A stretch of 63,971 nt of DNA, filler included, from Stramenopiles sp. TOSAG23-6 (GCA_900128565.1; 3 parts of 3 records of this genome joined end to end with filler, not necessarily neighbours in it); one strand, 5' to 3'; shown: positions 2,971-63,651, numbered from the whole stretch's first letter. Program-made: numbers and translations. Notes: generated by a model not told the origin, from the sequence alone.

Positions 2971-5829
2971 ATGGTGTGGGGTAGAAAAAAAGGAGGCGCC
3001 AGGCCAATGGAAGATGAGAAGTTACCATCTTCTACGACAGCAATAGTGGAAAGTAGTATTCCAGTAACGACGAAACATATGCCATCATTGATAGAGGAAG
3101 CCAAAACATCTAAAGCATCTCGAAAGAAGCGTTCGAAAAAAAAATCGAAAAAAGGAAGAGACCATCGACGTATTGTATCGTCTTCTACACGGAGTAAACC
3201 ATCAGATGTTGAAACTGGAAAAAATGATGGCAAAGATGGCAAAGTTGGGAAGCCACTAGGCTTAACTCTTGAAATGAATCTTATACCAAATGATTCCGCA
3301 TCGGATTCAGAGGCTCGTGGTGATAGTGGCAGTGATACAACTAATTCAGATTCGAGTGATTCGGAAATTTCAGAAGGGGGTATCGTCAACCGACAGACTG
3401 ATATTAGAGTGTCTCCTACTTGTATGTTTTCATTTGAATTTCAAATTTATTTTTTCATACGAAATTCTGTACCTAACAAATTTAAAAAAAAATTGAAATA
3501 TGTTTTACAATACATCTGCATTGCGACAAATGTCTCAACTAGAACAATTACATGAGCAAGGGGTACTAACAGTGAAGCAGTATACAGAAGCTCGAGATGA
3601 TCTTCTTGCTAAACAAGCGGGGATAAATATTGCAATAAATCACCGAAATCATCGCAAGCCACCCACTGAACCAAAACCATTGACACCAAAACCCACTGTG
3701 AAGGAACTAAATCTTCAAAGACTCTCTCCAAAGCATCGAACTGGATTAGAAGACGAGGATGTAAACGAAGATAGTTTTGACCAAGAACGAGAACAAAAAA
3801 GTATTACTCTAATACCAAGTGTACAGAAAGCAGCGATGCGTTGGAAAACACGGACGTCTATTGCACCGGGCACTAGTAATATTCTAGGCATGTACGTTTC
3901 TTTACCTAAACATATTTTAACATATTTTAACATATTTTTACCTAAATTTCGAAACTGTATTTCATAAAAAAAAATGTACCTAACGAATTGTTTTACTACA
4001 AAAAATGCTATTTATCATACATGGGTACAATGGGATTCGTACCAACGACATTATCACCAATAGCTGGTTCACCATCACATAATGCCGGGGATAATGGAAA
4101 TTTCTTTGGAGTAGCTATGCAAATGCAGATGCAACAGGCTGCATTACAACAGGCAGCCATTAAACACGCCGCGATGCAACAGGCAGCGATGCAACAGGCA
4201 GCAATACAGCAACAGATTATGCAAAATAGTATGGTGATGCAACAAATGCCTCACATGCAACAAATGCCTCACATGCAACAAATGCCTCATATGCACAATT
4301 ATCACCAGCTCCAACAACAGCAGTTTCAACACCAGTTAATGGAAAATAATCCTGGAGGTCTAGAAATGCCACAAAATATGTATCATAGTAGTCAATACAA
4401 CTCTATCCCTAGTGGCAGGAGTTATAGTTCATATCAGCATCCCAACGGAAGTAGTACCAATAGAAGTGCAGGCTATGATAATGGTTTTGATTCATCGGCG
4501 TCTGGGCGGAGTAATAGTAATAGAGGCAGTGTATTTCAACCGTATAACGCACCACCTAGTTTTAGATCAAGTAATGGTAGTTATACCAATTCATATAATA
4601 CAAATATTCGGGATACAGAAAGTGTAGGTGGCACAACTAGAGATAGAAGGCATAGTGGTAGAAGAAGTAACAATAGATCGAGAGCATCTCGTGGTTCATT
4701 TTCATCAACTGGATCTATGCCTAATAGAAGATCTGGAGGTGTAGGTAGCGATCGTCATCAGTCTGGAAGTGCTCGCTTATTACCCAAGCATATTCAAGTT
4801 AGATTCTGTGAATCTTTGCGATCTTTTTACATTAGATATGACCCAGAGGTATTGCAAGAGCCGGGTAGATTACCAAGTATTCTACGTAGTTATAGAGGGC
4901 GAGAAATGTATTTAGTTGCTGATATTGAACGACAGTTTGGATCTAGTCCAGAATCAAGAGCAATAGCGGCTGCTTTACAGACAAATAGAGGACCTCGATC
5001 AGTAAGTAGGGGTGTTGGATGGATAGGTAATAGTTCAAGTAATTCCTCAAGTGCTGCTGCAACAGCAGCGAGTGCGTCCGCAAGGCGTCTAAAATCGCCA
5101 AGAGCCCAAGGATTGTTTGACAACTTAAAAAATGGCCCATCAGGAGCAAAAACAAGTCGACCTAATACTCGTGTATCAAAGCGAGAGGATGATCAAGGTT
5201 CGATGTCAGAAAGATCAAAATCGAAAGATAGATATCCAGTATTACTTAGTCCATTGCCAAAGACCAAAACAAATGCACCTTTAAGTAGAACATTGAGTGA
5301 ATCTTCGATTAGTTCATCGGAATTATCTTCTAGCACAAAGCCAATAAGTTTTGCACTTCAAGAAGCTGCAGCGAATATCAATGATGACTTTCCTGAACTT
5401 GTTAACATAAATTCTAGTGAAGTTACAAGTGATGGATCTCCTACTAATCAACGACCAAGATTAAATCCACTTTCAGCAGGCGAAGCATCAACAATCTCTA
5501 ATCCAGATAGAATACACGACGTTGATGTTGGAAAATTTTATAAGAAGAAAAAAAAGAAAAAGAAAAAATCACCAAAAGGGCATAAAAAAAACAAACTGAA
5601 TACCCCCAAAAAGCAAAGACTTGAACGAGAAGCTGCTCTGAGATTACTAAAAAAAAATACAATAAATGTGAGACCAAAAGTTGCAGCTCCAAGACGAGCC
5701 CCCCCTTCGGGACCCCCACCAAAACCTTCAGGGCCTCCAGTGATAAGGTCGGCAATACATTCATCTAGGTCAAGATCTTCAAGGAGTGACTTAAGTGGGC
5801 GGAGAAATGCAGTAGATAATGAATATTAA
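2971..5829 (+). CDS. Low-complexity Q/S/K-rich protein, 3 exons (2971-3421, 3516-3891, 4023-5829)
   Basis: Three ORFs join in frame (...SPT-SALRQ..., ...NILG-MGTMG...) when introns 3422-3515 and 3892-4022 are removed. Confidence 0.75.
3422..3515 (+). other. Non-canonical intron GT...AT (94 nt)
   Basis: TT|GTATGT...GTACCTAAC...AATACAT|CT; restores frame. Confidence 0.8.
3892..4022 (+). other. Non-canonical intron GT...AT (131 nt, internal CATATTTTAA repeats)
   Basis: AT|GTACGT...GTACCTAAC...CATACAT|G; restores frame. Confidence 0.75.
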
Positions 5830-6219
5830 AAAATATTTAACAAATAAAATTTAATTTTGGTGAAAATTTTATGAATTAATATATTTTTAGGGGTATGGGC
5901 AATGAATACGAAGATATAGATAAAATTTCATTTCTAGATTTATTTTCATTGTGTATTGGATCAAACAAACACCAAAAGAAGAATCACTAGTAAATATTCG
6001 AATTATTTGTGATGTCTACGTATTCCGGTCTACAGCCGTTTTTTTGACCGTTAAAAGTTATCAGATACTAGGTGTAGTATCCTATACACGATACCCAAGC
6101 ATATAATACATAGCTGTGCCTAAATATGAACTAGGAAATATTCTTACTATGATTATCCTTCAAAGAGTATATATGTTTTCATGTAGATATACTAAATAGA
6201 AAAATGCTATAACACCGCA

Positions 6220-9746: not shown

Positions 9747-10617
9747 ATGCTTCTGATGTTGTATACAATACTAGTCGTGGTAGTTTGTATTTTGTTTTTA
9801 CTTTTACCTTCTTGGAGTATTTTACAATTTGTTCTTTTCCTAAGTTTTGTTTTGGGTGTTTTGTATGTTACACCAACGACATCCTTGTTTACGCAGCTGC
9901 GTTCCTCTCAAAACCGTGCCATATGTAAAAAGAATAGTGTAGAGCTCAATTTGAATAATAGCAATATTATCTCTTTTAACGGAAAACAATGGGTCAAAAT
10001 TGGACACACTGATATTTTTGACAAGAAAACTTCCATATTAATATCGAAACAAAATAATTTTCTGTGGTCTTCCCTTCAACTTCCACCAGTAGCTTTATTT
10101 CGGTTTGGTAGGGATTCTCCTATATATGCAATACAAGATGAATGCCCCCACGTTGCAATTGGTTCGTTGGCAGAAGGAGAAGCTGCCTCTCTCGAAGATA
10201 TTGAAGACTTTTCTGATGCGACGTGTAATGCAGCTGTTTCGTGCCCGATACATAGCTTTACTTTTGATCTTTCCACGGGTCAGTGCATTTCTAGAGATTC
10301 GTGTACTTTTTTTTTTTTTATCATTTTCAAATTCATTTTTTTTTAGTAAATAATCTTATCATTATAACATAGCTAACGATTTTCAAATTAGATGTATTTT
10401 CTTACTTATATGTGATGATGCTACTATTTATGAAACAATAATAAGTGAAGAGTTGTTTCCTTCTACTTGTGTGAAAAATAATGAAACGGGTTATATATGG
10501 CTATGCACGAAACCTAAAAAAAGACGTGATGATGAAAAGTTTCTTATTTCGAATGTTGAAGGCGACAAAGTTCAGATGCACTTGGTGAAATTAGCTCTAC
10601 AGAGAAAATATGGTTAG
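9747..10617 (+). CDS. Membrane-anchored Rieske [2Fe-2S] domain protein, 2 exons (9747-10302, 10412-10617)
   Basis: N-terminal hydrophobic segments; Rieske ligands DECPH...VSCPIHSFTFDLSTGQC; second exon CDDATIYETII...RKYG-stop is in frame after intron removal. Confidence 0.75.
10303..10411 (+). other. Divergent non-canonical intron GT...AT (109 nt)
   Basis: GT|GTACTT...TAGCTAAC...CTTATAT|GT; the internal AG at 10390-10391 gives a frameshift and early stop. Confidence 0.6.
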
Positions 10618-10769
10618 GAAGTACAAAGGTTGAAGGAGATCAATTTTGTTAGATACGAAATTATATACGAAAAAAGAATCTTCCATTGGTGAACAAAACG
10701 AATTAAATTACATAGGACAAACAATAATCAATTAATATTTANTATAATATAATANAATATAATAGTAAA

Positions 10770-12077: not shown

Positions 12078-12131
12078 TAGGGTTGGGGGTTAGGGTTGGG
12101 GGTTAGGGTTGGGGGTTAGGGTTGGGGGTTA
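12078..12131 (+). repeat. 4 x 13-nt telomere-variant repeat (TAGGGTTGGGGGT), G-quadruplex-prone
   Basis: Read directly; lies between divergent genes. Confidence 0.85.
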
Positions 12132-12217: not shown

Positions 12218-14271
12218 ATGGATTCTGAGCATATATTCAATGGCATTGCTCAACAAGGGGCTCGAAAAGAGGGTGGAAGAGGCCGTGGAAGAGGTCATGG
12301 AAGTGGTCGTGGAAGAGGTCGTGGAAGAGGTCGCCGTGGAAGAGGTCGCGGTCGCCGTCACCATGCACAAAATGAAGTAAAACGTCACAATAGTGGTCAC
12401 AAAAGAATTCGTGAGAGAAGTTACAGTTCATCCAGTCGTCAGGGTAGTCGTGATGCTCCGCGTACTGTAAAAGATCTGGAACAGCAGCTTTTTTCGCAAA
12501 ATGTGCCGCAAGCACGCAAAAAGAATAATAAAAAACGGAGGAAAAAAAAGAAAAATTCGTTGAATATTAATGTAAATTCTGCGAATAGTTCACAAAACAA
12601 TGGCGTTCGGCGTTCACCTAGAGTAATTGCAAAAACTTTTCAGAACGATACTGAGATGCCGGATTTCACACCAACTATAAGTTCCGGAAAGAAAAAAGAT
12701 TTTATGACTTCTTCTACTTTTGCTTCTTTGGACATTGACACGCGTCTAAAAAGAGGTCTGGCTGAAGTAATGAAATATGTCACAATGACACGTGTCCAAG
12801 AACAAACACTTCCAACTGCTCTAAGTGGAGTTGATTTACTTGCACAAGCTAAAACAGGGACGGGGAAGACTTTGGGATTTCTCATCCCTTCGATAGACAA
12901 CGTCTTACGCTGTCGACAGCGTTTGAGTGGTGTTTCCATCATTGCAATTTCACCGACCAGAGAATTAGCTAACCAAATATGTACAGAAGCATCAAAGTTA
13001 TTATATTTTCATCCTAATTTTAAGACGTGTTCAATGGTGGGTGGAACAAATAAAAAAACTGATATCAAACGTATCAAAAGTGGCATCGATCTTCTCGTAG
13101 CAACTCCTGGCAGGTTGATAGATCACTTGCAGTCAACTCCAGGATTTCGTGAGCAGTGTGCTAGTGTAAAAGTTTTGATTCTCGATGAAGCCGATCAAAT
13201 GCTAGAGATGGGTTTCAGACCTGATCTTACACGAATTATTAGTTATTTACCAAAGGATAGGCAAAGTTTATTATTTTCTGCAACAATGCCTAAAAGTTTG
13301 ATGGATGTGTGTAAAATTGCAGTTAAACATGATTATAAATATATCAATACAATACCAAAAGATCAGCAGCAGACTCACAAAAAAGTTCCACAAGCTGTTG
13401 TCGTTGCACCAGTGGATCAAATTACAAATATGGTTATGAAAGAAATCTCTATAGAGATGCAAAGGCATCCAAATAATTTTAAAGTCATGATATTTTTTGT
13501 GACTGCTCGTTTGACCGGATTTATGGCAACTTTATGTCGAAAAGCTCGTATACCTACTATAGAAATGCATTCAAGAAAAAGTCAATCATACCGCACAAAA
13601 GCAGCCAAACAATTCCGTGATGGAACAAAACTGGTATTGTTTACGTCTGATGTATCCGCGAGAGGTGTTGATTACCCTGATGTGACGCTTGTCATGCAAG
13701 TTGGTATGACTGAACGAGAGCCTTACATGTATGTTTTATTTTTTTTCAAATTCGATTTTTTTTTCATACGAAATTTTGTACCTAACGAATTTTTTTTTGA
13801 AATATTTTTCTAAAATACATTCATCGTCTTGGTCGAACTGCTCGTGCAGCAAGTGGAGTAGAAGGTCGAGGAAAGCTAGTATTAGCCCCATTTGAGTCAA
13901 AATTTTGTCTTTCATTACTTACTGAGTTACCTATACAATTTGAGACGTATGTGCCTTGCAAAGATACTCATCCAGAAGTTTTTACTCATGTGACTCGGAT
14001 GCTGAATGATATAAAAAAAGATCCGGAAATGAGAAAAGCAGCTGCACAAGCGTATCAAGCATGGATTGGATTCTATAATGGTTACTTGCGAAAATTACGT
14101 TGGAACAAACCTGAACTCGTTCGCATGGGGACGGAATTTGCAAGGTCTATCAATGCATTGGACGTACAAGGAAACCCTCCAGCTCTTCTTCGACGAACTG
14201 TTGGGAAAATGGGACTGAAAGGAATTCGTGGTCTTACGATTGTGAACTCACCAAATGATTTAGTCTACTAA
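12218..14271 (+). CDS. DEAD-box RNA helicase (Mss116/RH25-26-like), 2 exons (12218-13728, 13821-14271)
   Basis: AQAKTGTGKT, SPTRELA, TPGRL, DEAD, SAT, ARGVD; motif VI YIHRLGRTAR forms only across the intron; N-terminal RG repeats. Confidence 0.92.
13729..13820 (+). other. Non-canonical intron GT...AT (92 nt)
   Basis: AT|GTATGT...GTACCTAAC...AAATACAT|T; contains no AG; restores helicase motif VI. Confidence 0.92.
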
Positions 14272-16391: not shown

Positions 16392-18179
16392 TTATGTAAC
16401 TAACATTTTTTTAGCAAATGTGCTCATACAACAACCAAATGCCTGTATAGGTGAAAATGGGTATTTAAAATCTAGAGAATATACATTCCTTCTCACTTTC
16501 CCAAAACGAAGCTGTTCTGTATCAATCCCAAATTCACTTTCTAGATGACATGTGTTGTAAAAAAATATTTTAAAAATTTGAAATTCGTTAGGTATGGTAT
16601 TTGGTACGAAAAGAATAAATTTGAAATTCATGATAAAAACGTACATGAACTTTCCACCTCAAGTAGAAAATTTTTTTTTGACGCTTTCTTTACACGACCA
16701 TCAAAATTGAGAGTCCACGCATTCAAATCTTTATTCCATTTATTGTAAAAAAATATAAAAAAAAAATCGTTAGGTACAAAAGTTTCTATGAAAAAAAAAA
16801 AAAAAAAAGTCGATATTATTTTGAAAACGTACACGATGGCTGTTTTGTACGAAATTGTAATAATTGAGACTGTTCTTGAACGCCCAAAGATGCATATTCA
16901 TTTCTAATAACCTCCTTCTCACCTCCGGTAGGTTTCTCCTTTGTAATTCGATTTTTTTGTTCCATATCAAATCGGTCACAAAGACTCATAAAATTAGCTT
17001 TCAATGCATCTTCATCATCATGACGTGGTAGTATCACTTTCATGTATTTTGGAAAAATATTTGAAAAAAAAATTGTTCGGTACAAAATTTCGTATGAAAA
17101 AATAAATTCGAAATAAAAAAAAAATAAAACATACATCGAGTTTGGCACTCGGGCTAAGATATTAGTCTCAAAACGAATATGGATTAAATCGTGAGCAGCA
17201 TATATTTTCAAAAATACTTTACATTTTGATGTTTCTTTGTTAGGTACAAAATTTGGTATGAAAAAGATATTTATTCAATTTTGAAAAAAACGTACATGAC
17301 TACTTTTCACCTTTAATTGAGGATTTCGTGCTCTATAATCAAAAAGAGAAAACTGCTTTCCAGTCATATTACTTATCATACACCCTAAATATACTGGACT
17401 TGACTCAGATGTTGGTATACTATCTATAGTTGTTAGCCTAAAAGTGTTATTAATTGTACTAAATATACAGAGACCCTTGTGCGTACTATTCATACTAGCA
17501 GCCATGTNTTCGTGAAAAAATATTTTTTTTTTGTCAAAAAGCTTGTTAGGTACAAAATTGTGTATGAAAAAAAATATATATTCATGATGAAAACATACAT
17601 CATAAATTCGCCCGATTGTTTGTGAAAATGCCAAGCAGTAACAAACGCACCGACGTATCGACGAATATATCCTAAACACCATATATCAGACACGGAATCA
17701 GTTACAGGAGATAAAAATGTTGCCTTTTGTCCGTGCATTAGTTGGTGCAGACGCTGACCTTCTGGAACCTCAGCAAAGTCCGTTGTTGGTTTCTCTTTAA
17801 ATATTCCTCGGAGCTTATTTGGATTATCTTTTATTGGTTCGCTTATTAAAGCATTACCCGTAGAGAGATCAAAGAGTTCATCTCCACTAGCAGAATACTC
17901 TTCGTAGGACTCTTCGTCGTCAGAAACATTATTTGAGCCTTCTTGAGAACTGTTATCCGAGTCTTTCTTAGAATCCTCAACATCTACAGTCACAAGTTCT
18001 GCCTGTATGTTGCTTTCTTTTACAGTGGGCGTACTTAATTTATTCACGTCTGTGCTGATTGGCTCACTTAGAATACCCTTCTCTACATTTGATTCAGTCT
18101 CTAAGGGAGCTGCGTTTAAATTAGTTTCGGCTACATCACCGAAAATATCCCAAACGTCATCGAACTTTTGATCTCCCAT
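16392..18179 (-). CDS. Tubby-domain protein, 6 exons (18179-17599, 17503-17296, 17199-17135, 17041-16833, 16737-16645, 16549-16392)
   Basis: Spliced product contains FETNILARVPNSMKV, KQPSWNKDLNAWTLNFDGRVKKASKKNF, LRFGKV, YSLDFKYPFSPIQAFGCCMSTF (Tub C-terminal motifs). Confidence 0.88.
16550..16644 (-). other. Non-canonical intron GT...AT (95 nt)
   Basis: AT|GTACGT...ATACCTAAC...AACACAT|GT. Confidence 0.8.
16738..16832 (-). other. Non-canonical intron GT...AT (95 nt)
   Basis: GT|GTACGT...GTACCTAAC...AATAAAT|GG; restores KQPSWN. Confidence 0.85.
17042..17134 (-). other. Non-canonical intron GT...AT (93 nt, in frame, stop-free)
   Basis: AT|GTATGT...GTACCGAAC...AATACAT|G; restores PNSMKV. Confidence 0.8.
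17200..17295 (-). other. Non-canonical intron GT...AT (96 nt)
   Basis: AT|GTACGT...GTACCTAAC...AATATAT|G; contains an in-frame stop. Confidence 0.8.
17504..17598 (-). other. Non-canonical intron GT...AT (95 nt)
   Basis: AT|GTATGT...GTACCTAAC...AANACAT|G. Confidence 0.8.
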
Positions 18180-21463: not shown

Positions 21464-22443
21464 ATGCCAAAGCGCTGGAAGCGGCGACTCCGAACTCAAA
21501 TGCGGTTGGCTCACGAAGCCAATGCATTACGTGTTCCGAATTCTTCATTGAATAACTCAAAAGTGGTTGAATCAAAGCAGCCCCAGGAATATTTCCCACT
21601 TGACGAAAAAGGTGCTGCTCGTTTTCTTAATGTAGAAGCGATGTCGAAGTCAGATTCCCCTACTGATCTGACGTATCATAGTGCTGGATTACCCATATTA
21701 TATGGTAGTTTAATTGATCTTCCTATTCCTATTCAGGAAGGAAGTGCTGATCTCAAAATAAAGTTAGTCGCCACTGGGGGAGAAATACAGTATTCTGTAT
21801 CTTGGGAGTCTCTCTGCCCAGTAAAGCATTTAGGTGTATCCCCTTCGAAAGTTCAGAAATACATTGAAAGTGAGACATCGCTTAAAAATTCTAATGAAAA
21901 TTCTACAATACCTCCGAGTATTTTTGAAAAAGAAGAGTCACTAGAATTATTGCCCTTAACTAATCTGAAAGGTTCGGACAACATTTCCCTGTTTATTCCT
22001 AAAGCTGGTGTTGTTACATTACATGTGCAAAATAGTAGTACTACCTGGCCCGTAAAGGATGTACATTTTCAAAATTGAATTTCGAATTTTTTTTTTTCAT
22101 AGAAAATTTTGTACCTAACGATTTCTTTTTTTATCTACACTTTTTTTCACAATACATGATGATGTAGTATTACACTACGTTGTCTCTTTAGAACACATTT
22201 GTCCTTTGGTAACGAAACGAAATATCATGTATTCACTTAAAAAGCAGTGTAACGATTTAAATTCGATATATCGTGATAGTCTTAGAGTTGTTGAAGAAAG
22301 TAGTCAAAATTTAGAAACACTTAGAAAGAAATTATGTATGTTTTATTTTTTTTTTTACAAAAAAATCGAATTTATTTTTTTTGAAAAATTTTGTACCTAA
22401 CAAATTTAAGGTTTTTTTTTTNAAANATTTTTNCNAAANACAT
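21464..22443 (+). CDS. Protein with GOLD-like beta domain and coiled coil; 3'-truncated at the linker (exons 21464-22060, 22158-22335)
   Basis: Frames join as WPVKD-DDVVLHYVVSL; GOLD similarity (KAGVVTLHVQNS...W...LHYVV) is tentative. Confidence 0.6.
22061..22157 (+). other. Non-canonical intron GT...AT (97 nt)
   Basis: AT|GTACAT...GTACCTAAC...AATACAT|G. Confidence 0.8.
22336..22443 (+). other. Non-canonical intron GT...AT (~108 nt) at contig end
   Basis: AT|GTATGT...GTACCTAAC...ANACAT; downstream exon missing, several Ns. Confidence 0.65.
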
Positions 22444-22444
22444 A

Positions 22445-38462: not shown

Positions 38463-38566
38463 GTATGTTTTATTTTTTTTTACAAAAAATCGAATTTATT
38501 TTTCGTACGAAATTTTGTACCTAACAAATTTTTTTAGATTTTTTGAAATATTTTTCAAAAATACAT
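38463..38566 (+). other. Non-canonical intron GT...AT (104 nt); downstream exon does not continue the transporter
   Basis: AT|GTATGT...GTACCTAAC...AATACAT|G; first half closely matches intron 22336-22443. Confidence 0.75.
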
Positions 38567-45394: not shown

Positions 45395-46540
45395 TTAATA
45401 AAATGTTGCTTTTCCAACCCGCGTCGGAGTTGCTTCTTGCATGTCAGAACGATTATCAGATAATTTAAAAGCATTCTTTGATAATGCACATGTATTGTAA
45501 AAAAATATTACAAGATTTTTGTCATTAGGTACAAAATTTCGTACGAAAAAAAAATAGGCAAAAAAAAAATAAAAACGTACATCTAGTTGCAAGACAAAAG
45601 CATAACTTTGAAAGTATTTCAAACATATGATATACCCCATTATGATTGATTCCTTCAACACCATCAAACGGCAAAATACAACCATGTGCAGTGAAAAAAT
45701 ATTTTCGAAAAATAATCGTTTGGTACAAAATTTTCTATGAAAAAAACATCTAGGTAAAAAAAATTAAAATAAAAAACGTACATTTGTTTCTGCTAAAAGA
45801 GAACCACATGTCGGAGCTAATAAACCTTGAATAAGACAACCAACAAAAGATAATAATGCACCTAAACAAATCAACTTTCTTGCTGTTGGTGTTCCCCATG
45901 ATACAACTGGGCGACAACAGTTACAAAAGAAAGATAGAAATATCGTAATAAATAACGAAAAATTTAAAAAGACTCCTAGGTAACCTACAACATAAAAGAG
46001 ATCATACTGTAAAAAATTAGGCAAAATTTTCTCCGACAATACACTATACCCAACAAAAAACAATGAAAGAACTTGTCCCATGATAAACATAAAAGAATAT
46101 AGTCGACGACTCATACAAGCAGACATTAGAAATACAATAATACACAATTGACCAACAGATATTCCTTGAAAACACATTGCAACTTTCCATACAATGTCAT
46201 ACTTTTCACGAGCACCTTCAGGACAACGGATACCATTAACTATTTTTCCTCGTATAACTATCTTTCCAGGACACTCTCGATGATAATATATATGATGACA
46301 AAGACCTGCAGCTAGAAAACTAAGGGCAAAAGTACAAAGAAAAGAAGTAAGCAGGTTATACAAAGTACTTTGCGTTGGTTGAAGAGAAAAAAAACGACGG
46401 AAGCTATTGATTCCCTTTGAAGGAGGCTTACAAAAGTTTAGTAAAAGTGCTGCAAGACAAATAGCAGAGACAATATAGTTGGTGAGCCATGTTGATGTTG
46501 CTTTATCCGTGCCAAATGTATACAACAAACGACCAGGCAT
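45395..46540 (-). CDS. Multi-pass membrane protein, 3 exons (46540-45782, 45683-45581, 45489-45395)
   Basis: About 7 hydrophobic helices; GLCHH and INHNGVYH His motifs; frames join ETN-GCILP and ATR-CALS. Confidence 0.75.
45490..45580 (-). other. Non-canonical intron GT...AT (91 nt; mirror copy 63466-63556 +)
   Basis: AT|GTACGT...GTACCTAAT...AATACAT|GT. Confidence 0.75.
45684..45781 (-). other. Non-canonical intron GT...AT (98 nt; mirror copy 63265-63362 +)
   Basis: AT|GTACGT...GTACCAAAC...TGCACAT|G. Confidence 0.75.
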
Positions 46541-48603: not shown

Positions 48604-49723
48604 CTATGTAGCAATATAACTTGGTACGGTAATGTCAACATCACTTATATCTTTAGGTACTTGAAAGTCTTTGTCAACTGGAGATATTTCCGCAACTCGA
48701 CGGAATATTTCTCCCATGCCAGAGTCATACCCATTGTTTGCTCTAACGGTGCACATTGTAGAATATTCATATTCATCCTGGTAGTATACCCCTTGAATAT
48801 TCGATACGCGACCTGGATTTGGTTTCCCAGCAGTACTGGCAACTGCAGAAATATTAGCAGTAGCATTGTGTTCATTGGAAGGTACATCAAAGAACATACT
48901 CAAAATAATATGTATTTTGGAAAAATATTTCAAAAAAAAATCGTTAGGTACAACATTTCGTACGAAAAAAATCGAAATTGAAAAAAAATAAAACATATAT
49001 AACCATTGTCAGATAATGTTGCTCCAATTAAATGTCCGTTTGAATCACATCGTAATTCCGCGGCGTCTCTTCTTAGCGTAGTAGTTCTGCCTCCTCCAAA
49101 TGGCTGAAAGAAAGGCTCGTCCAACTTCTTTTCATTGTCACATGGATGAATTTTGGGGAAATATTTCAAAAAAAAATTGTTAGGTACAAAATTTCCTACT
49201 AAAATTAATTTTGAAATTCATGATAACGTACATTTCCCATAACTACAAAGTGATACACACGAGGTCCATCTTTTGTCGTCACACATTTTGTATCAACATG
49301 GAGAAAATCCTGTGTATCACAAACACATGGCCAACAGCAATAATGCATAAAACCAAGACGATTACTACCTTTCGAACCAACTAAAGGAAGACGTAATAAA
49401 TATCTATTGTAGTCATTGGGAAATACAGGTGAACCTGAGACGGCACAAAACCCAGAAAACATTTGTAATAGTTTTTTATGAGACATCTGAGATGATCTGT
49501 TTAACAAAAATGATGCCCAAAGATGTGATGCAGCATTTCGATTGCCATACTTGAAGATTTTATTATATTCTCTGTGTAAGTACCTCACAGTCGACTTTTC
49601 ATTAGAACCAGTCCAGAATGACATTTTTCCATCTTTTCTTGTACACTTAGATGCTGCATTTGTATACTTCAACAACATGTATAGAAAAATATAAATAATC
49701 AAACATGCTTGTGTAGAAATCAT
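48604..49723 (-). CDS. Secreted Cys-containing hypothetical protein, 3 exons (49723-49232, 49145-48999, 48909-48604)
   Basis: Signal peptide; FCAVSGSP and CCWPCVCD; joins MGN-PCDN and DNGY-IILS. Confidence 0.75.
48910..48998 (-). other. Non-canonical intron AT...AT (89 nt; mirror copy 60048-60136 +)
   Basis: AT|ATATGTTTT...GTACCTAAC...AATACAT|A; same family with G1 to A. Confidence 0.7.
49146..49231 (-). other. Non-canonical intron GT...AT (86 nt; mirror copy 59815-59900 +)
   Basis: AT|GTACGT...GTACCTAAC...AATTCAT|C. Confidence 0.78.
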
Positions 49724-54500: not shown

Positions 54501-57112
54501 AGAAGTGGATATTAAATCAAAACAACGACGTTCAATATTACGACCCGAGCCTAGAGAAAGTTTTGTATCAATTGCATTCGTTGTAGAGATATCTCGAATA
54601 GAACCAACATTTTTTTTAATTTCGTGTGAAATAAAACGCAATTTTACTAATTCCTCTAAACCAGCAGTGCTACTTTCAAATATTTGTTTTCCAGTTTCTG
54701 ATTTCACATTTGCACTGATATTTCTTATTGATGACATATAATCTGTGATTTGAGACATAATGGCCTCAAACTGATCTTCGGGTAAATCGCTTCCATAGCG
54801 TTCACATAATTTTTGTACAATAGGGAATACAAAGTAGTGAAGAAAGAGTACTAAATTGTCCTTATTTGAAGTAATTTGCTTAACAGTTTTCGCACCCTTT
54901 TTACAGAGCCAAAAGTTTCTCGTTTTTGGTATTTTCATTGTTGTTAGATGTGCAAGTATTAGGTTTGGTTTCATCTCTGCGTAGTTTTTCATGTACATAT
55001 TAAAAAATTTGAGCAATTGAACTAATTCTGAAGATGATGCCAAAGGTTTCGTCTTTGTCTCTGCCTCTATGGTCATGTGATAAAACAAATACAAGAGAGG
55101 CAACTTTACATTCCACGCAACATATTTATCAAGAATAGCATAAAGTAATGATGACCAGTTATACAAACTTTGTACTTTCGCCTCTGCAACATTGAAATCT
55201 CCATCACAACAGTTTGCTAAAAGTCGTATTAAATTTACATGATACAACAATAATGGTTCCTCCATACAATTTGGTTGTTGCATAAGTTTAATACGAACTT
55301 GATACTCGGGAGACTTTTGGTCTGCGTACAGTAATAATGTCTTTTTCATATATCGAGAATGTGTAATGATATTTAACACACGCATCTGATTTTGCCTACT
55401 CGCAAGGTTGATGGTGTGTAATAGTTCGAGATATTCGTATTTTGGTTCATCTAAGTCAGCCAACTTTATAACAACAGCTTCAAGTAAATTATTTGATACT
55501 CTACAGGATAGTTCTTCGTTTCCTTCAAATATTGCACATAAGAGATCATTTGACTTTGGTACAAGTCCTATTCTACCTACAATTTCATCAACAAAACCAA
55601 ACAACTCTTCTTGAACTTCCTTATGCTCCTTTGTTAAACTTATAAGAAAGTTATTAAATGCAGTTAACATTTCAATTACATCTTCCTCTATCCCAGATAA
55701 TGCAAGACTATCAACATTTTTATCTATTAATTCATTACCATCTATATCTGTGATAATATCATCGTCATCATCGTCATCGTCTTCATCACCTGGAACATCA
55801 ACCTTTAGCATCTCATCAATTAAATCATTAATACCCAAATTTAATATGGCAGTCTGCATCTCTGGCATTGGTCTAATCTCATCGTTTGCTGCTGCTTCAT
55901 TTGCTTCAGTCTTGCACAAATCTTCGATCTGTCTGAGCCATTTCGTTAATTTTCTTAATTCATCAGACACATAATCTTTATCTTCAGACTCACCCCAAGC
56001 TTCATACGCTTCTACCGAACATTGAATTTTCTGGGCTAAAGAGCGCGCAGTTTCATATTTTGTTGCTAAATCATCATTCACAATTAGCTGTGTCTTTTCT
56101 ATGGCAGATACTAAATATGAACGTTGACTGTAGTACGATAAAAGTAAACACATGACTTCACCCACAAGCTCGGTATGATTGTACATGAGTAAATCAAGAC
56201 ATATATCAGTGATATCACCATCGTTAGATTCCTTTGATATGTTTGCAGTTTCCGTTGAAAGCATTAGAACATCTAATTCGCAATATTTTTTCTGATCAAA
56301 TAGGCTTCCAAAAATATCATTTATAACTGCTAAACCATTTTGTTTTGTAGCGGGATTTCGTAATACTTCTCTCCCTTCAACTAGGAATTTTCTATACGCT
56401 GCATTAGTCTTATTCAGCACAGCGTCATTATTGTTCAAAGAACCACCACCAACTTTTGATTGAAATAGCTTCATAAAAATTCCTAATCGAAATTCAGTGC
56501 TAACATCAGTTACTAAACGTAGCATACGAACAAGCTCAAGTTTTGCCTCCATGTGAGGTGATGTAATACGTGTCAATTCATAACGGTTATCTTGGGGATC
56601 TTCGTAATCTATGAGAGTCATGCTATTTTTTGCCATTAAAAATAAGGCTCGAGCAAGTTTTGCAGCGCGAATTAAACGTAAAAGCCGAAGCATTCGCAAT
56701 AACCTCAGCGTTCGAACTATGTATTTTGGAAAAATATTTCAAAAAAAACCCCGTTAGGTACAAAATGTAGTACGAAAAAAAATCGAAATTGAAAAAACAT
56801 AAAAAACATACATAGTGTTTGCACTACTTTTACCTCCACCGCTACTGGAAGATGATGAAGAATTACTTCCCCCAGATGCTAGTAAGGCTGCCCAATCTAC
56901 TGCAACAATAATGAAATCAATTACACAGAGCCAATCTAAAAAATATCTATCACTTCCCATTGCCCAACATCTAAATACAAAATCAGCAGTAAAAAGGGCA
57001 ATAAAGAAATTTTCTAAAAATTCCATGAATCCAGACTCCTCATTTGCATCCATCGAAAGTGATATTCCACCTTGTATAACTGATAAAATAGTCATTACAA
57101 TAATAAATATCA
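51507..57112 (-). CDS. IP3-receptor/ryanodine-receptor-family Ca2+ channel with an extra voltage-sensor-like domain; 5'-truncated (exons >57112-56812, 56718-51507)
   Basis: RIH-associated LRLLMEGH..NQDILREQ..VQGPCYENQ; pore GVRAGGGVGD; FGIIIDTFGSLR; CFIC..HIKEQHNMWDY; S1-S4 with RTLRLLRMLRLLRLIR. Confidence 0.9.
56719..56811 (-). other. Non-canonical intron GT...AT (93 nt)
   Basis: AT|GTATGT...GTACCTAAC...AATACAT|AG; in-frame stop inside; the AG 2 nt further would frameshift. Confidence 0.85.
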
Positions 57113-57539: not shown

Positions 57540-57566
57540 TATAAATAAAGATTGATGTTTTTAAAT

Positions 57567-59072: not shown

Positions 59073-59322
59073 TGAAACGTAATTATAGCCGTCTAAATGT
59101 ATACTCTATTGAAAGTAATATATATATAAAGAAATTGATTGTGTGTGTGTTCCTACTTTTTTTTACTCTTTTTTGTTTGAATGCAAAAAGACACAGGAAC
59201 GTTTTCAATTTTTTGGGTAGCAAATTAGCTTGTGTTCCACCTCGACCTTCGTACTTTACGCAACTTGACTATTAAGAAGAAGGGAATCTCGAATCATTCT
59301 TTACATTCCATTACTTTCAAAG

Positions 59323-60442
59323 ATGATTTCTACACAAGCATGTTTGATTATTTATATTTTTCTATACATGTTGTTGAAGTATACAAATGCAGCATCTAAG
59401 TGTACAAGAAAAGATGGAAAAATGTCATTCTGGACTGGTTCTAATGAAAAGTCGACTGTGAGGTACTTACACAGAGAATATAATAAAATCTTCAAGTATG
59501 GCAATCGAAATGCTGCATCACATCTTTGGGCATCATTTTTGTTAAACAGATCATCTCAGATGTCTCATAAAAAACTATTACAAATGTTTTCTGGGTTTTG
59601 TGCCGTCTCAGGTTCACCTGTATTTCCCAATGACTACAATAGATATTTATTACGTCTTCCTTTAGTTGGTTCGAAAGGTAGTAATCGTCTTGGTTTTATG
59701 CATTATTGCTGTTGGCCATGTGTTTGTGATACACAGGATTTTCTCCATGTTGATACAAAATGTGTGACGACAAAAGATGGACCTCGTGTGTATCACTTTG
59801 TAGTTATGGGAAATGTACGTTATCATGAATTTCAAAATTAATTTTAGTAGGAAATTTTGTACCTAACAATTTTTTTTTGAAATATTTCCCCAAAATTCAT
59901 CCATGTGACAATGAAAAGAAGTTGGACGAGCCTTTCTTTCAGCCATTTGGAGGAGGCAGAACTACTACGCTAAGAAGAGACGCCGCGGAATTACGATGTG
60001 ATTCAAACGGACATTTAATTGGAGCAACATTATCTGACAATGGTTATATATGTTTTATTTTTTTTCAATTTCGATTTTTTTCGTACGAAATGTTGTACCT
60101 AACGATTTTTTTTTGAAATATTTTTCCAAAATACATATTATTTTGAGTATGTTCTTTGATGTACCTTCCAATGAACACAATGCTACTGCTAATATTTCTG
60201 CAGTTGCCAGTACTGCTGGGAAACCAAATCCAGGTCGCGTATCGAATATTCAAGGGGTATACTACCAGGATGAATATGAATATTCTACAATGTGCACCGT
60301 TAGAGCAAACAATGGGTATGACTCTGGCATGGGAGAAATATTCCGTCGAGTTGCGGAAATATCTCCAGTTGACAAAGACTTTCAAGTACCTAAAGATATA
60401 AGTGATGTTGACATTACCGTACCAAGTTATATTGCTACATAG
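59323..60442 (+). CDS. Inverted-arm copy of the secreted hypothetical protein (3 exons)
   Basis: Mirror of 48604-49723. Confidence 0.72.
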
Positions 60443-61063
60443 ATTTTTAATATTTTTTCAAGTCTTTCTATAGTACATTTTATAATGATACTATTGTGTA
60501 TGAAATACAAGTCACATATATTGATACTATTGTATATAAAAGTTCAAGTCTTTTTTTTTATTAAAAATAAAATTATTGTATTTTTAGTGCTGTAAAAAAT
60601 TAGTAAATAATTATCAAATAAAAAAAGTTGGCTTTTCTTGAACAAGTCTTATGATGAAATTAAAATAAGAAGGAAAAGTAAAGTAAGGAGGATATTGAGT
60701 AGATTCCCTGAATGCAAAATTATGTTGGACTCCATTTGAAATATACAGATGTTGACTCTTTCAATACAATAACTATATTGAACAATATTTGAATTTTAGG
60801 TATTTGTCAACACATCAAACAACTGGAAGTATTTGAATCTTATCGCGAGTCAAGTGACTGAATGTCAAACTCTACAAAATATATTCAGTTTGTGACAAGA
60901 TATATTTAGTTTGTGACAAGATATATTTAGTTTGGGACAAGATATATTTAGTTTGTGACAAAATATATTTAGTTTGTGACAAGATATATTTAGTTTGTGA
61001 GAGTATACATCTCAATGTATTGTTTATTATTTCTCAATTTCAAGATGTTAACACCAACGCAAG

Positions 61064-62128
61064 TTATCTAAAAATGTCATAACAAGTAAAATATAACGGG
61101 TAAATTACAAGAACCATGACAGTAACAACCAAGCCAAATATATTTGCATTATTTGATGAGGCAGGACAATATTTAAGTGGAATATCCGTCACAGTCATTA
61201 TCGTAGTAATATCATTTTTGATGTTTTGAACTACGTTTATCTCATCAGTTGAAAGGTTTTGTGTTTTTTTCTGGATTTCATCCAATGAATCATTAAAACC
61301 TGTAAATGCATCATTAGCGTTTTTATTAATTTTAGCTGCACAATCTGTAACTTCTGTTGTTGCAAGTTTTGGTATTAGTTTATTCTTTTCAATCTTTAGG
61401 TCGTTTTTGTTAAAGCCCTTTTCATTTTCACAATTATATTTACACAACAAATCATAGTTGGCATCCGTTAGTTTTGTTTTGTTACCGTCTTTGACCCATT
61501 TCCAATCCCCATCTAAATGATCCTTTGCAAAGCATTTAATGTTCCAGTCCGGGTCATTCTTTGTATAATACTCAACACAATCATACTCACAAGTCTCATC
61601 TATTTTTCCATCGGGACACTTAGGTGTTTCAACGTGATATTTGCTGTCAATAGATGTATCCTTGCAATATTGGGGTTTTTTGTCACAATGTACTTTGAAA
61701 CAGGTTTCTCCTTCTATTATACAGTAGTCGCCGTCCTGCTTATGAGTACAATTGGCTTGTAGTTGGAGCTCGTATCCATTTTCGCATATTTTTATTAGCT
61801 CAAAAATACTACAATTTAAATAATGTTGATGACGGTAGCGCCATTCTTTTATTCGGAAATCACTATGAGAAAATGTTTCTAATAATAAATCTTTAAAATA
61901 TTCAGAATAGTGACACTCAGCAGTACAGGTTTCCAAAATCAAGTTCTCCAAATCCGACATTTTGACCTCACCCAATCGTCTCTCTCGTCTGTCTCTGTCA
62001 CTAAGTCGATTAATATACAATTGAACCAAATAACCCAAATCATTACACTGACACTTGGCAGCAACACCTTCTTCAATTGCAGCAACAAAAACCACTAAAG
62101 TGTTGATAAGCTTTTTCATGTTTACCAT
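61064..62128 (-). CDS. Inverted-arm copy of the Cys-rich surface protein
   Basis: Mirror of 46918-47982. Confidence 0.68.
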   Translation of the reverse strand: MVNMKKLINTLVVFVAAIEEGVAAKCQCNDLGYLVQLYINRLSDRDRRERRLGEVKMSDLENLILETCTAECHYSEYFKDLLLETFSHSDFRIKEWRYRHQHYLNCSIFELIKICENGYELQLQANCTHKQDGDYCIIEGETCFKVHCDKKPQYCKDTSIDSKYHVETPKCPDGKIDETCEYDCVEYYTKNDPDWNIKCFAKDHLDGDWKWVKDGNKTKLTDANYDLLCKYNCENEKGFNKNDLKIEKNKLIPKLATTEVTDCAAKINKNANDAFTGFNDSLDEIQKKTQNLSTDEINVVQNIKNDITTIMTVTDIPLKYCPASSNNANIFGLVVTVMVLVIYPLYFTCYDIFR

Positions 62129-62505
62129 TTGTTTTTAGTGAGCAACAAAGTGATATAATTATAAGTAAATCAAGAGGTGTAGTAGTACCTGTACTGCCTT
62201 TGTAGTATCCAATACAATAGGAAGTATGCCTTCCACCCGGTACGTATTAGTATAATCCGTAATATAATTACCAACAAACCGCAAGAAGATACGTGACGAC
62301 AAAGACGACGACGAAGAACGAAGGAAGGAAGAGGACTTTTTAAAAAACTTGAGAGCGAGTTTAAACTGTTACCGGGTACTCAATTTTATTTTCTTTCGCT
62401 TTTTCAAGAAAGTTTCGCTCGCTCCCAAAAAAAGAATTTAAATTTTTTCATAAAAACAAAACAAACAAACAATCATCGCTATTCTTATTTTACTAAAATA
62501 ATAAT

Positions 62506-63651
62506 ATGCCTGGTCGTTTGTTGTATACATTTGGCACGGATAAAGCAACATCAACATGGCTCACCAACTATATTGTCTCTGCTATTTGTCTTGCAGCACT
62601 TTTACTAAACTTTTGTAAGCCTCCTTCAAAGGGAATCAATAGCTTCCGTCGTTTTTTTTCTCTTCAACCAACGCAAAGTACTTTGTATAACCTGCTTACT
62701 TCTTTTCTTTGTACTTTTGCCCTTAGTTTTCTAGCTGCAGGTCTTTGTCATCATATATATTATCATCGAGAGTGTCCTGGAAAGATAGTTATACGAGGAA
62801 AAATAGTTAATGGTATCCGTTGTCCTGAAGGTGCTCGTGAAAAGTATGACATTGTATGGAAAGTTGCAATGTGTTTTCAAGGAATATCTGTTGGTCAATT
62901 GTGTATTATTGTATTTCTAATGTCTGCTTGTATGAGTCGTCGACTATATTCTTTTATGTTTATCATGGGACAAGTTCTTTCATTGTTTTTTGTTGGGTAT
63001 AGTGTATTGTCGGAGAAAATTTTGCCTAATTTTTTACAGTATGATCTCTTTTATGTTGTAGGTTACCTAGGAGTCTTTTTAAATTTTTCGTTATTTATTA
63101 CGATATTTCTATCTTTCTTTTGTAACTGTTGTCGCCCAGTTGTATCATGGGGAACACCAACAGCAAGAAAGTTGATTTGTTTAGGTGCATTATTATCTTT
63201 TGTTGGTTGTCTTATTCAAGGTTTATTAGCTCCGACATGTGGTTCTCTTTTAGCAGAAACAAATGTACGTTTTTTATTTTAATTTTTTTTACCTAGATGT
63301 TTTTTTCATAGAAAATTTTGTACCAAACGATTATTTTTCGAAAATATTTTTTCACTGCACATGGTTGTATTTTGCCGTTTGATGGTGTTGAAGGAATCAA
63401 TCATAATGGGGTATATCATATGTTTGAAATACTTTCAAAGTTATGCTTTTGTCTTGCAACTAGATGTACGTTTTTATTTTTTTTTTGCCTATTTTTTTTT
63501 CGTACGAAATTTTGTACCTAATGACAAAAATCTTGTAATATTTTTTTACAATACATGTGCATTATCAAAGAATGCTTTTAAATTATCTGATAATCGTTCT
63601 GACATGCAAGAAGCAACTCCGACGCGGGTTGGAAAAGCAACATTTTATTAA
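62506..63651 (+). CDS. Inverted-arm copy of the multi-pass membrane protein (3 exons)
   Basis: Mirror of 45395-46540. Confidence 0.72.

What the first reader, a model, noticed from the sequence alone, without database searches (positions are those of the whole stretch)
3422..63556. All 25 reconstructable introns lack the AG acceptor: a GT...AT (YAT) splicing system
Seen: 25 distinct 86-131-nt inserts interrupt ORFs on both strands and in all three contigs. They share a 5' end GTAYGT (9 GTATGT, 11 GTACGT, 5 variants), a branch-like TTTTGTACCTAAC, a downstream AAATATTT and a 3' end mostly AATACAT. 24/25 start GT, 24/25 end AT, none ends AG, and I found no GT-AG intron anywhere in the window. 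Removal rebuilds conserved motifs to the base: helicase motif VI YIHRLGRTAR (13729-13820), Tubby KQPSWN and PNSMKV, ankyrin GNTLLIVACQNG, TRAP1 AKYVAEQLFDN, CBP3 QEFFDVLW and the channel S4. Established: U2-type introns use GTATGT-like donors, CTAAC branch points and an essentially invariant YAG acceptor; U12 introns use RTATCCTT and TCCTTAAC. Inference: this lineage runs a major-type spliceosome whose 3' splice-site specificity has shifted from YAG to YAU, or a dedicated route for this family. I know of no described genome where GT-AT is the dominant intron type, but I cannot search the literature here.
Basis: partly seen in the sequence, partly recalled or inferred. Interest (0 to 1): 0.96.

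Follow-up and report, generated by a model that had tools for sequence, protein, structure and literature searches.

The report
Mobile introns ending AT, not AG
A marine protist's genes are interrupted by one family of about 100-base, transposon-like introns that begin and branch like ordinary introns but end in AT instead of the near-universal AG, so its splicing machinery seems to pick the intron's end by a different rule.

Summary
The window is a compact, AT-rich stramenopile genome; the source label of the best protein match points to MAST-3. It carries 25 distinct copies, plus 4 mirror duplicates, of one 86-131-nt element inside ORFs, all in sense orientation. Termini are GT-AT in 23, GT-TT in 1 and AT-AT in 1; none ends AG. 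Removing exactly these bases joins the long open frames in 22 of 25 copies; the other 3 are untestable or ambiguous. It also gives gap-free alignments to homologues at 8 of 8 junctions tested (TRAP1 2, Tubby 5, DEAD-box helicase 1). In 8 of 25 copies an AG between branch and 3' end must be skipped. The first AG beyond the end would be in frame in only 6 of 17. The upstream exon ends AT in 19 of 25, so AT sits at both borders like a target-site duplication, and an AT-AC register gives the same mRNA there. The copies form an introner-like repeat family. GT-AT is already known as a rare, mainly U12-type, terminus. RNA proof is only indirect: two RNA contigs stop at the predicted bases. Best reading: transposon-derived U2-like introns with a non-AG 3' site. 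This is a new variant of a known kind.

The parts
3422..3515 (+). family intron, GTATGT...CAT, phase 1; upstream exon ends TT
   Evidence: frames join
3892..4022 (+). diverged family intron (131 nt), GTACGT...CAT, phase 2
   Evidence: (partial profile hit)
10303..10411 (+). diverged family intron in Rieske-domain gene, GTACTT...TAT; contains an internal AG
13729..13820 (+). family intron in DEAD-box helicase; removal rebuilds motif VI
16550..16644 (-). family intron 5 of Tubby gene, GTACGT...CAT
16738..16832 (-). family intron 4 of Tubby gene, GTACGT...AAT; upstream exon ends GT
17042..17134 (-). family intron 3 of Tubby gene, GTATGT...CAT
17200..17295 (-). family intron 2 of Tubby gene, GTACGT...TAT; two internal AGs
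17504..17598 (-). family intron 1 of Tubby gene, GTATGT...CAT
22061..22157 (+). family intron, GTACAT...CAT, phase 0
22336..22443 (+). family intron at contig end (Ns follow); frame not testable
24260..24350 (-). family intron in EF-hand gene, GTTCGT...CAT; upstream exon ends AC
25556..25646 (-). family intron, GTATGT...CAT, phase 0
27166..27296 (-). family intron (131 nt) in ankyrin/EF-hand gene, GTACGT...CAT
29530..29639 (+). family intron in ankyrin gene, GTACGT...CTT (the one copy ending TT; upstream exon also ends TT)
   Evidence: RNA contig X6 record 10 stops at 29638 with 46 unplaced letters
34172..34263 (+). family intron in CBP3 (Ubiq_cyt_C_chap) gene, GTGCGT...CAT
34793..34890 (-). 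family intron 2 of TRAP1, GTACGT...TAT; 8-nt repeat between exon end and intron end
   Evidence: RNA contig X6 record 11 stops at 34889
35294..35398 (-). family intron 1 of TRAP1, GTATGT...CAT
37819..37925 (+). family intron in SPX-domain gene, GTACGT...CAT; upstream exon ends TA; first 7 nt repeated at start of next exon; internal CAG skipped
38463..38566 (+). family intron, GTATGT...CAT; followed by an 8-codon last exon (frame not testable); internal TAG skipped
45490..45580 (-). family intron, GTACGT...CAT
45684..45781 (-). family intron, GTACGT...CAT; frame consistent but ambiguous
48910..48998 (-). family intron starting ATATGT (the one AT-AT copy)
49146..49231 (-). family intron (86 nt), GTACGT...CAT
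56719..56811 (-). family intron in RyR/IP3R-like channel gene, GTATGT...CAT
59815..63556 (+). span holding the 4 mirror duplicates (59815-59900, 60048-60136, 63265-63362, 63466-63556) of introns 49231, 48998, 45781, 45580
   Evidence: arms 45075-51933 and 57113-63971 are 100% identical, inverted
10590..10720 (-). degenerate family-like stretch downstream of the stop codon of the Asp/Arg-hydroxylase gene; ends ...CTGTAG; not in coding sequence, function untested
   Evidence: (hit 10642-10681, E 0.0007)

Best explanation
These are introner-like introns: one mobile, MITE-sized repeat family that has colonised the coding regions of a MAST-3-type stramenopile. Each copy brings its own strong U2-type signals. 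These are 5' GUAYGU, a branch site UACCUAAC, a U-rich tract and a conserved 3' block ending ...AAUAC-AU. Copies sit at (C)AT|G sites, so AT stands at both borders. The pre-mRNA is cut before GU and after the second AU, 32-45 nt beyond the branch A. This restores the original coding sequence exactly. The 3' site is therefore not chosen as 'first AG after the branch'. AG is ignored even when present. The retained A at -2 and U at -1 can still contact the branch A and G(+1), or A(+1) in one copy. Shown here: the family, its termini, sense orientation, frame restoration, homologue-level junctions and skipped AGs. Inferred: RNA-level removal by a spliceosome, the branch nucleotide, the transposon origin, and the exact cleavage register in the 19 copies with AT on both sides.
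For: There are 25 distinct copies, all in the sense orientation of 14 genes. Under random orientation the chance of that is about 3e-8 (my arithmetic, 2 to the power -25). Termini are GT-AT 23, GT-TT 1, AT-AT 1. Frames join in 22 of 25, and the other 3 are untestable or ambiguous. In TRAP1, the GT..AT model is gap-free against the 25 homologues shown of 60 aligned. The AG+12 alternative deletes four conserved residues and the AG+3 alternative gives a one-residue gap. Tubby junctions agree at 5 of 5 against P0122 and others. In the helicase, exon 1 ends and exon 2 starts within one residue on DDX18 and Has1 chains, with motif VI rebuilt. An AG lies between branch and 3' end in 8 of 25 copies and would be in frame in only 1 of those 8. 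The first AG beyond the end is in frame in 6 of 17. The branch-to-end distance is 32-45 nt, median 37. Family traits: median pairwise identity 0.71, maximum 0.93, and GC 0.20 against 0.36 for the window. Exon flanks are C 40%, A 80%, T 92% before the intron and G 64% after it. In 4 of the 6 copies whose upstream exon does not end AT, the deviating base is a synonymous third codon position (read). This fits an exonic copy of a duplicated AT that has drifted. RNA hints: polyA-RNA contigs X6 record 10 and record 11 end at 29638 and 34889. Those are exactly the bases predicted for contigs spliced at these junctions, and 46 and 4 letters continue unplaced. DNA contig X2 record 3 runs on into the intron. 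Two more family copies lie outside the window, read into a carnitine-acyltransferase model (P0271).
Against: No splice joint was actually displayed: the 15 joints listed are cross-matches between family copies, and 203 more were hidden. Two RNA-run contigs (X7 record 21, X8 record 29) run from exon into intron, so unspliced RNA or DNA is present. Family depth relative to exons is about as high in the RNA runs as in the DNA run, which does not show efficient removal. No snRNA or splicing factor could be inspected. The inverted termini are only about 5-6 nt and show no covariation. The TSD reading rests on a nearly invariant AT, and within-copy correlation does not exceed chance. No empty site was seen. 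Only 57 kb of the genome was examined.
Confidence: 0.6

Rival explanations
1. The same introns are handled by a minor-type (U12-like) spliceosome, or by a single diverged spliceosome with U12-like tolerance. That system is known to accept GT-AT and AT-AN termini and to set the 3' site by distance from the branch.
For: GT-AT is a documented, experimentally competent U12-type terminus: 7 cases in human and mouse (PMC1557818, passages read). [quoted passage not shown] The branch block CCTAAC resembles CCTTAAC. The distance of 32-45 nt is within the <=45 nt quoted there. AGs are ignored.
Against: All 25 copies have 2-4 mismatches to RTATCCTT and carry G at +5, the U2-type hallmark. The branch-to-end distance is longer than the 9-12 nt window described for Physarum. 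No U11, U12, U4atac or U6atac could be looked for.
Confidence: 0.13
2. The true cleavage register lies 2 nt upstream, making these AT-AC introns (ATGTAYGT...ATAC). A(+1) and C(-1) form the known compatible pair, and 'GT-AT' is an artefact of an ambiguous alignment.
For: The upstream exon ends AT in 19 of 25, so both registers give the same mRNA there. In 4 of the other 6 copies the two registers give the same protein, and in 29530 the same mRNA (my reading).
Against: The GT-AT register gives uniform termini: GT in 24 of 25 and AT in 24 of 25. The shifted register gives AT in only 19-20 of 25 and AC in about 19 of 25, with TT, GT, AC and TA starts. GTAYGT in register +1 to +6 fits the universal U2-type donor. 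The upstream dinucleotide varies at synonymous sites as exon sequence would.
Confidence: 0.08
3. The elements are removed from RNA without a spliceosome, guided by pairing of their ends, as proposed for euglenid nonconventional introns or Amoebophrya introners.
For: AT+GTA at the 5' border and TAC+AT at the 3' border are complementary, with 82% of cells paired over 6 positions. Repeats at both borders are typical of those systems (PMC11282704, PMC7789003, passages read).
Against: RNAalifold finds no consensus pairs. The terminal pairing equals shuffled controls, with no covariation. The elements carry conserved GTAYGT and CTAAC at spliceosomal spacing. Such signals would be unexplained in a spliceosome-independent route.
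Confidence: 0.07
4. The inserts are excised at the DNA level or are insertions in dead gene copies, and the expressed genes lack them.
For: They are transposon-like repeats with a duplicated AT. The source assembly shows amplification-type artefacts such as the inverted chimera.
Against: All 25 of 25 are in sense orientation. ORFs are intact on both sides in all testable cases. An independent DNA metagenome contig (X2 record 3) also runs from exon into the intron. Conserved single-copy genes (TRAP1, DEAD-box helicase, Tubby) carry them.
Confidence: 0.03

Closest known systems
Introners / introner elements (Micromonas, Aureococcus, dinoflagellates and others; PMC9860276, PMC12130899, PMC11282704, passages read)
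   Same: A multi-copy, near-identical short family that interrupts unrelated genes in sense orientation. It is AT-rich relative to exons. One border sequence repeats at the other border, so splicing restores the original mRNA. The elements carry their own splice signals.
   Different: Described introners use GY-AG (or AT-AC) borders. The curation step quoted in PMC12130899 treats other termini as suspect. Here the 3' end is AT in 24 of 25 and AG is never used. The inverted termini are very short.
MITE-derived non-canonical introns of Fritillaria borealis (AG-AC, AG-AT) and Amoebophrya introners (review PMC11282704; PMC7789003; passages read)
   Same: Transposon-like introns with direct repeats at the borders and non-GT-AG termini. 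They dominate or co-dominate a genome and are mishandled by standard gene prediction.
   Different: Those introns lack a canonical donor, and their termini are highly variable. Here the donor (GTAYGT) and branch (CTAAC) are canonical and only the acceptor departs. The lineage also differs (stramenopile).
U12-type introns with GT-AT termini; transposon-driven U12 expansion in Physarum (PMC1557818; 10.1101/2020.10.12.336362; passages read)
   Same: GT-AT termini are accepted. AG is not required. There is a CCT(T)AAC-like branch block. In Physarum the origin is a TE with a 2-nt duplication and short inverted ends.
   Different: The 5' site here is not RTATCCTT, with 2-4 mismatches in 25 of 25 copies. 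The branch lies 32-45 nt from the end. GT-AT is the rule here rather than a few per cent.
Yeast-type U2 introns of intron-poor genomes (GTATGT ... TACTAAC ... YAG; consensus recalled, not from a call)
   Same: A near-invariant GTAYGT donor, an extended TAC(C)TAAC branch site, and a branch-to-acceptor distance of tens of nt.
   Different: The acceptor is (C)AT, not YAG. AGs after the branch are bypassed.
Euglenid nonconventional introns (PMC11282704 passages; PMC12501133 abstract only)
   Same: Non-canonical borders, TSD-like repeats and a suspected MITE origin.
   Different: Euglenid introns depend on stable end pairing and lack spliceosomal motifs. Here no stable pairing is predicted and spliceosomal motifs are conserved.

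Membership tests
U2-type (major) spliceosomal intron | 5' splice site GTRNGT-like, with G at +1 and +5 | tested here: met
   GTACGT 11, GTATGT 9, GTGCGT 1, GTTCGT 1, ATATGT 1, GTACAT 1, GTACTT 1. That gives G+1 in 24 of 25 and G+5 in 23 of 25.
U2-type (major) spliceosomal intron | Branch site CTRAY upstream of the acceptor | tested here: met
   CTAAC or a one-base variant is present in 25 of 25 copies, 32-45 nt from the 3' end. The branch nucleotide itself was not mapped.
U2-type (major) spliceosomal intron | YAG acceptor, first usable AG after the branch | tested here: not met
   0 of 25 end AG. An AG between branch and end is skipped in 8 of 25.
U2-type (major) spliceosomal intron | Removal from RNA as a lariat by U1/U2/U4/U5/U6 snRNPs | not testable with these tools
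   No genome is held. No snRNA is in the window. RNA contigs give only indirect hints.
U12-type (minor) intron | 5' splice site RTATCCTT | tested here: not met
   2 mismatches in 10 copies, 3 in 11 and 4 in 4.
U12-type (minor) intron | Branch TTCCTTRAC close to the 3' end | tested here: inconclusive
   GTACCTAAC shares 6 of 9 positions (my comparison with the consensus quoted). The distance of 32-45 nt is at the far edge of the <=45 nt quoted.
U12-type (minor) intron | Presence of U11/U12/U4atac/U6atac | not testable with these tools
   No genome is held.
Introner (transposon-derived intron family) | Many similar copies serving as introns in unrelated genes | tested here: met
   25 distinct copies in 14 genes, with median identity 0.71 and maximum 0.93. 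Two more copies lie outside the window. Bins holding the family reach depths in the thousands in seawater DNA and RNA contigs.
Introner (transposon-derived intron family) | Target-site duplication at the borders | tested here: inconclusive
   AT stands at both borders in 19 of 25. The one TT-ending copy follows a TT exon end, and one copy has an 8-nt repeat. Within-copy correlation is not above chance. No empty site was seen.
Introner (transposon-derived intron family) | Terminal inverted repeats | tested here: inconclusive
   Only about 5-6 nt (AT)GTA / TAC(AT), 82% paired, equal to shuffles.
Introner (transposon-derived intron family) | Presence/absence polymorphism or recent insertion | not tested
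   Read laying was capped at one call and no relatives' loci were obtained.
Structure-guided nonconventional intron (euglenid type) | Stable pairing that juxtaposes the intron ends | tested here: not met
   RNAalifold predicts 0 pairs. No covariation.

The most novel reading that the evidence does not exclude
This stramenopile lineage has one working spliceosome whose second-step site is no longer AG. It reads a (C)AU, about 32-45 nt after a yeast-like branch site, as the acceptor and ignores AG altogether. An introner burst whose 3' end is supplied by an AT target duplication either drove this change or exploited it. As a result, essentially all of the organism's introns are GT-AT.
Probability: 0.4. 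Interest if true: 0.9.

Novelty: new variant of a known kind. Interest (0 to 1): 0.8.

Why it matters
If RNA data confirm it, this would be the first lineage in which otherwise canonical U2-like introns use a non-AG acceptor as the rule. That offers a natural experiment on how the spliceosome selects the 3' splice site, through the G(+1)/N(-1) and branch-A/A(-2) contacts. It would also be a new case of transposon-driven intron gain, in heterotrophic stramenopiles. There is a practical consequence already. Gene models made with forced GT-AG sites on this or a near-identical assembly are damaged. P0002 lacks conserved TRAP1 blocks and four conserved residues at one junction. P0271 contains intron-encoded peptide. 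Such models sit in reference protein sets used for phylogenomics and for annotating marine metatranscriptomes.

Tried and rejected
(1) Read laying. Bins without RNA cover say nothing.

(2) A scan of metagenome contigs with a 16-nt core gave 118 loci. The family profile matches none of them beyond two weak partial hits (E about 1e-3), so these are chance 16-mers. This says nothing about the family's distribution.

(3) A protein search for RNA-derived fragments bridging the TRAP1 junctions found none among 33 candidates.

(4) A protein search with an intron-encoded peptide returned only P0271, at E 0.09, among 4 candidates.

(5) P0121 looked like a spliced fragment but is a genomic ORF read through intron 16644.

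(6) Pfam scans on single exons gave coordinates too sparse for junction tests. They were replaced by homologue alignments.

(7) Rfam and tRNA scans of the window found nothing.

(8) The earlier-findings look-ups returned nothing relevant.

(9) Translational bypassing was considered and rejected. The repeats are not codon-aligned (phases 0, 1, 2 occur in 12, 6 and 7 copies, tallied), and spliceosomal motifs are conserved.

(10) Ciliate-type DNA elimination was considered and rejected. There are no TA borders, the genetic code is standard, and the gene content is stramenopile.

The same table was made from coordinates instead.

Supplements of the papers could not be opened. Splice-site tables there might bear on the novelty claim.


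Full report
**What the window is**

The window holds three contigs separated by N runs at 22445-22544 and 44975-45074. GC is about 0.36. It reads in the standard genetic code as about 30 closely packed eukaryotic genes. These include a DEAD-box helicase, TRAP1/HSP90, DNA primase large subunit, Tubby, a Rab-like GTPase, Pam16, CBP3, an SPX protein, ankyrin and EF-hand proteins, and a RyR/IP3R-like channel.

The TRAP1 ORF is closest to P0002, whose source labels it 'GSMAST32 ... assembled CDS', and to P0001 (jgi). Both are listed at 80% identity. Oomycete and other stramenopile proteins follow at about 59%. P0002's aligned blocks are essentially identical to the window, so it is a gene model made on this or a near-identical assembly. 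No whole genome is held.

The third contig is partly an artefact-like palindrome. Positions 45075-51933 and 57113-63971 are 100% identical inverted copies. The right arm cuts into the channel gene.

**The observation**

- The branch-like 13-mer occurs 32 times at up to 2 mismatches, against 3.3 expected.
- A profile of the family finds 23 distinct full-length copies and 4 mirror copies.
- Two more diverged copies sit at otherwise unexplained ORF breaks.
- The 25 distinct copies are 86-131 nt long (median 95). Their GC is 0.20.
- Pairwise identity has a median of 0.71 and a maximum of 0.93.
- All lie inside ORFs in the sense orientation of 14 genes.
Termini are GT-AT 23, GT-TT 1, AT-AT 1, and none ends AG.

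The alignment shows three conserved blocks:
- (AT)GTAYGTTTT
- TTTTTTTCRTACGAAATTTTGTACCTAAC
- GAAATATTTTTYCAMAATACAT

**Are the borders right?**

Removing exactly GT...AT joins the longest open frames on both sides in 22 of 25 copies. Chance would give about one third. Of the other three:
- one runs into Ns (22336);
- one precedes an 8-codon last exon (38463);
- one is consistent but ambiguous (45781).

In the Tubby gene, five introns and their exon lengths chain in phase to a 447-residue protein with a single terminal stop.

Homologue alignments confirm 8 of 8 junctions tested:
- **TRAP1, both junctions.** The model is gap-free against the 25 homologues shown of 60 aligned (one of them, P0021, is truncated at the second junction). 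The nearest in-frame AG alternatives do worse. The one at +12, used by the existing model P0002, deletes four conserved residues. The one at +3 leaves a one-residue gap.
- **Tubby, all five junctions.** They align without gaps to the close relative P0122 and others. Twelve homologues are shown of 25 aligned.
- **Helicase.** Exon 1 ends and exon 2 begins within one residue of each other on DDX18 and Has1 chains, and motif VI is rebuilt across the junction.

The CBP3, ankyrin and channel junctions were checked by frame only.

I saw no ORF break that a family copy does not explain. Several conserved domains are covered end to end without interruption: DEAD 1-166/167, Ras 1-159/162, primase 2-266/266, Asp_Arg_Hydrox 1-157/157. 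So no GT-AG intron is required anywhere in the window. Short in-frame introns cannot be excluded.

**AG is not merely absent, it is bypassed**

In 8 of 25 copies an AG lies between the branch block and the 3' end. Examples include good-looking sites such as ...ACAG in 37819 and ...TTTTAG in 38463. Using these AGs would be in frame in only 1 of 8. In the other 17 copies the first AG lies 2-41 nt beyond the end and is in frame in 6.

The distance from the branch A to the used end is narrow, at 32-45 nt with a median of 37. The used end is the first CAT after the branch in 16 of 25 copies. So no simple scanning rule explains the choice. The conserved 3' block probably does.

1. *The AT-AC register.* The upstream exon ends AT in 19 of 25 copies (T at -1 in 23, A at -2 in 20), and the downstream exon starts with G in 16. 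So (C)AT|G appears at both junctions. In those 19 copies the same mRNA results from a register shifted 2 nt upstream, which would read AT-AC. I prefer GT-AT for three reasons.
   - It gives uniform termini (24 of 25 at each end, against about 19-20 of 25).
   - It puts GTAYGT in the universal donor register.
   - The six deviating upstream dinucleotides (TT, GT, GT, AC, TT, TA) behave like exon sequence. In four of them the changed base is a synonymous third codon position.

   mRNA alone cannot settle the register.

2. *A target-site-duplication look.* The AT on both sides, the one TT-ending intron behind a TT-ending exon (29530), an 8-nt repeat at 34890 and the short inverted ends (AT)GTA/TAC(AT) resemble a 2-nt target-site duplication around a MITE. 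However:
   - within-copy correlation does not exceed chance;
   - the end complementarity shows no covariation;
   - RNAalifold predicts no structure.

   The transposon origin is therefore an inference, not a demonstration.

3. *One repeat family.* The copies form a single family, which is the definition of introners.

**RNA evidence**

One read-laying run was allowed. It used three RNA runs from two studies, plus one DNA metagenome.

- Bins containing family introns reach depths in the thousands in both DNA and RNA contigs, while exon bins are near 1-10. The family is therefore very abundant in seawater data. The listed joints are dominated by cross-matches between copies, and true splice joints were not among the 15 shown.
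- Two polyA-RNA contigs give indirect support. X6 record 10 aligns from 29896 down to 29638 and then has 46 unplaced letters. X6 record 11 aligns down to 34889 and has 4 more letters. These end points are exactly what contigs spliced at 29529|29640 and 34891|34792 would give, once the 2-nt repeats at those borders are allowed for. They are not what an unspliced contig or the AG+12 junction would give.
- The DNA contig X2 record 3 runs on into intron 29530.
- Against efficient splicing, two RNA-run contigs (X7 record 21, X8 record 29) run from exon into intron.

I treat RNA-level removal at these junctions as likely, but not shown.

**Comparison with what is known**

- GT-AT termini exist as a small class of U12-type introns that the minor spliceosome can splice, and in two conserved U2-type cases (PMC1557818, passages).
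- In Physarum, U12-type introns were multiplied by a transposon with a TA duplication, and GT-AT makes up 17% of the non-canonical ones (preprint 10.1101/2020.10.12.336362, passages).
- Transposon-derived non-canonical introns dominate in Fritillaria (AG-AC, AG-AT) and in Amoebophrya, and are codominant in Euglena (PMC11282704 and PMC7789003, passages; PMC12501133, abstract).
- Introners with GY-AG borders are widespread (PMC9860276, PMC12130899, passages).
- The present family differs from all of these. It keeps a canonical U2-type donor and branch site, with 2-4 mismatches to the U12 donor in 25 of 25 copies, and departs only at the acceptor. It does so as the rule.
- The two papers on MAST single-cell genomes and the Incisomonas paper do not discuss introns beyond methods (term searches of the main text only, supplements closed).
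- Searches for 'GT-AT introns', for 'non-canonical introns' with 'GT-AT', and for 'GU-AU' with intron terms found no description of such a lineage.

**Verdict**

The most likely account (about 0.6) is an introner-like family spliced by a U2-like spliceosome at a non-AG, (C)AU acceptor defined by the element's own 3' block and by distance from the branch. Rivals are:
- U12-like handling (0.13);
- an AT-AC register (0.08);
- structure-guided non-spliceosomal excision (0.07);
- DNA-level explanations (0.03).

This is a new variant of a known kind and of high interest. It has an immediate practical corollary: gene models built with forced GT-AG sites for this organism are damaged.

Noticed in passing
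window 45075-51933 and 57113-63971: Two 6859-bp arms are 100% identical and inverted around a 5.2-kb unique core. The right arm starts inside the channel gene's first exon. This looks like an amplification or assembly chimera rather than biology, and it duplicates four introns.
   Followed up: partly
window 12079-12131: Four tandem copies of a 13-nt telomere-like unit (GGGTTGGGGGTTA) lie in the short spacer between two divergently oriented genes (Asp/Arg hydroxylase and DEAD-box helicase). Possibly a shared promoter element or an interstitial telomeric tract.
   Followed up: no
P0002 versus window 34673-36999 (-): The existing TRAP1 gene model for this or a near-identical assembly lacks several conserved blocks that are present in the uninterrupted window ORF and in homologues. 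It uses AG sites 12 and 3 nt beyond the real intron ends. Forced GT-AG prediction has invented introns and misplaced real ones.
   Followed up: yes
P0271 (outside the window): A carnitine-acyltransferase model with the same source label begins with, and later contains, peptide encoded by family introns. This shows two further copies elsewhere in the genome and intron sequence annotated as coding.
   Followed up: partly
window 37819-37932: The first 7 nt of intron 37819 (GTACGTT) are repeated at the start of the downstream exon, and the upstream exon ends TA instead of AT. The border is ambiguous over 8 positions. Origin unexplained.
   Followed up: no
window 10590-10720 (-): A degenerate family-like stretch lies downstream of the stop codon of the Asp/Arg-hydroxylase gene. 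It has GTAATT at its start, two CTAAC motifs and an end ...CTGTAG. It is the only family-like sequence outside coding sequence and the only one ending AG. Whether it is a UTR intron is untested.
   Followed up: no
window 24001-44000: Bins containing family introns have summed contig depths of about 1000-9000 in a seawater DNA run and about 200-2800 in two RNA runs, against about 1-10 for exon bins. The family is extremely abundant in environmental data, including RNA libraries.
   Followed up: partly
window 48046-48172 (mirror 60874-61000): A tandem duplication of a unit of about 63 nt (93-95% identity between units) shows up in the self-comparison.
   Followed up: no
window 10742, 15464, 17508, 22422-22439, 44500: Isolated N calls, several of them inside A/T homopolymer runs of family introns, point to low consensus quality in these runs.
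   Followed up: no
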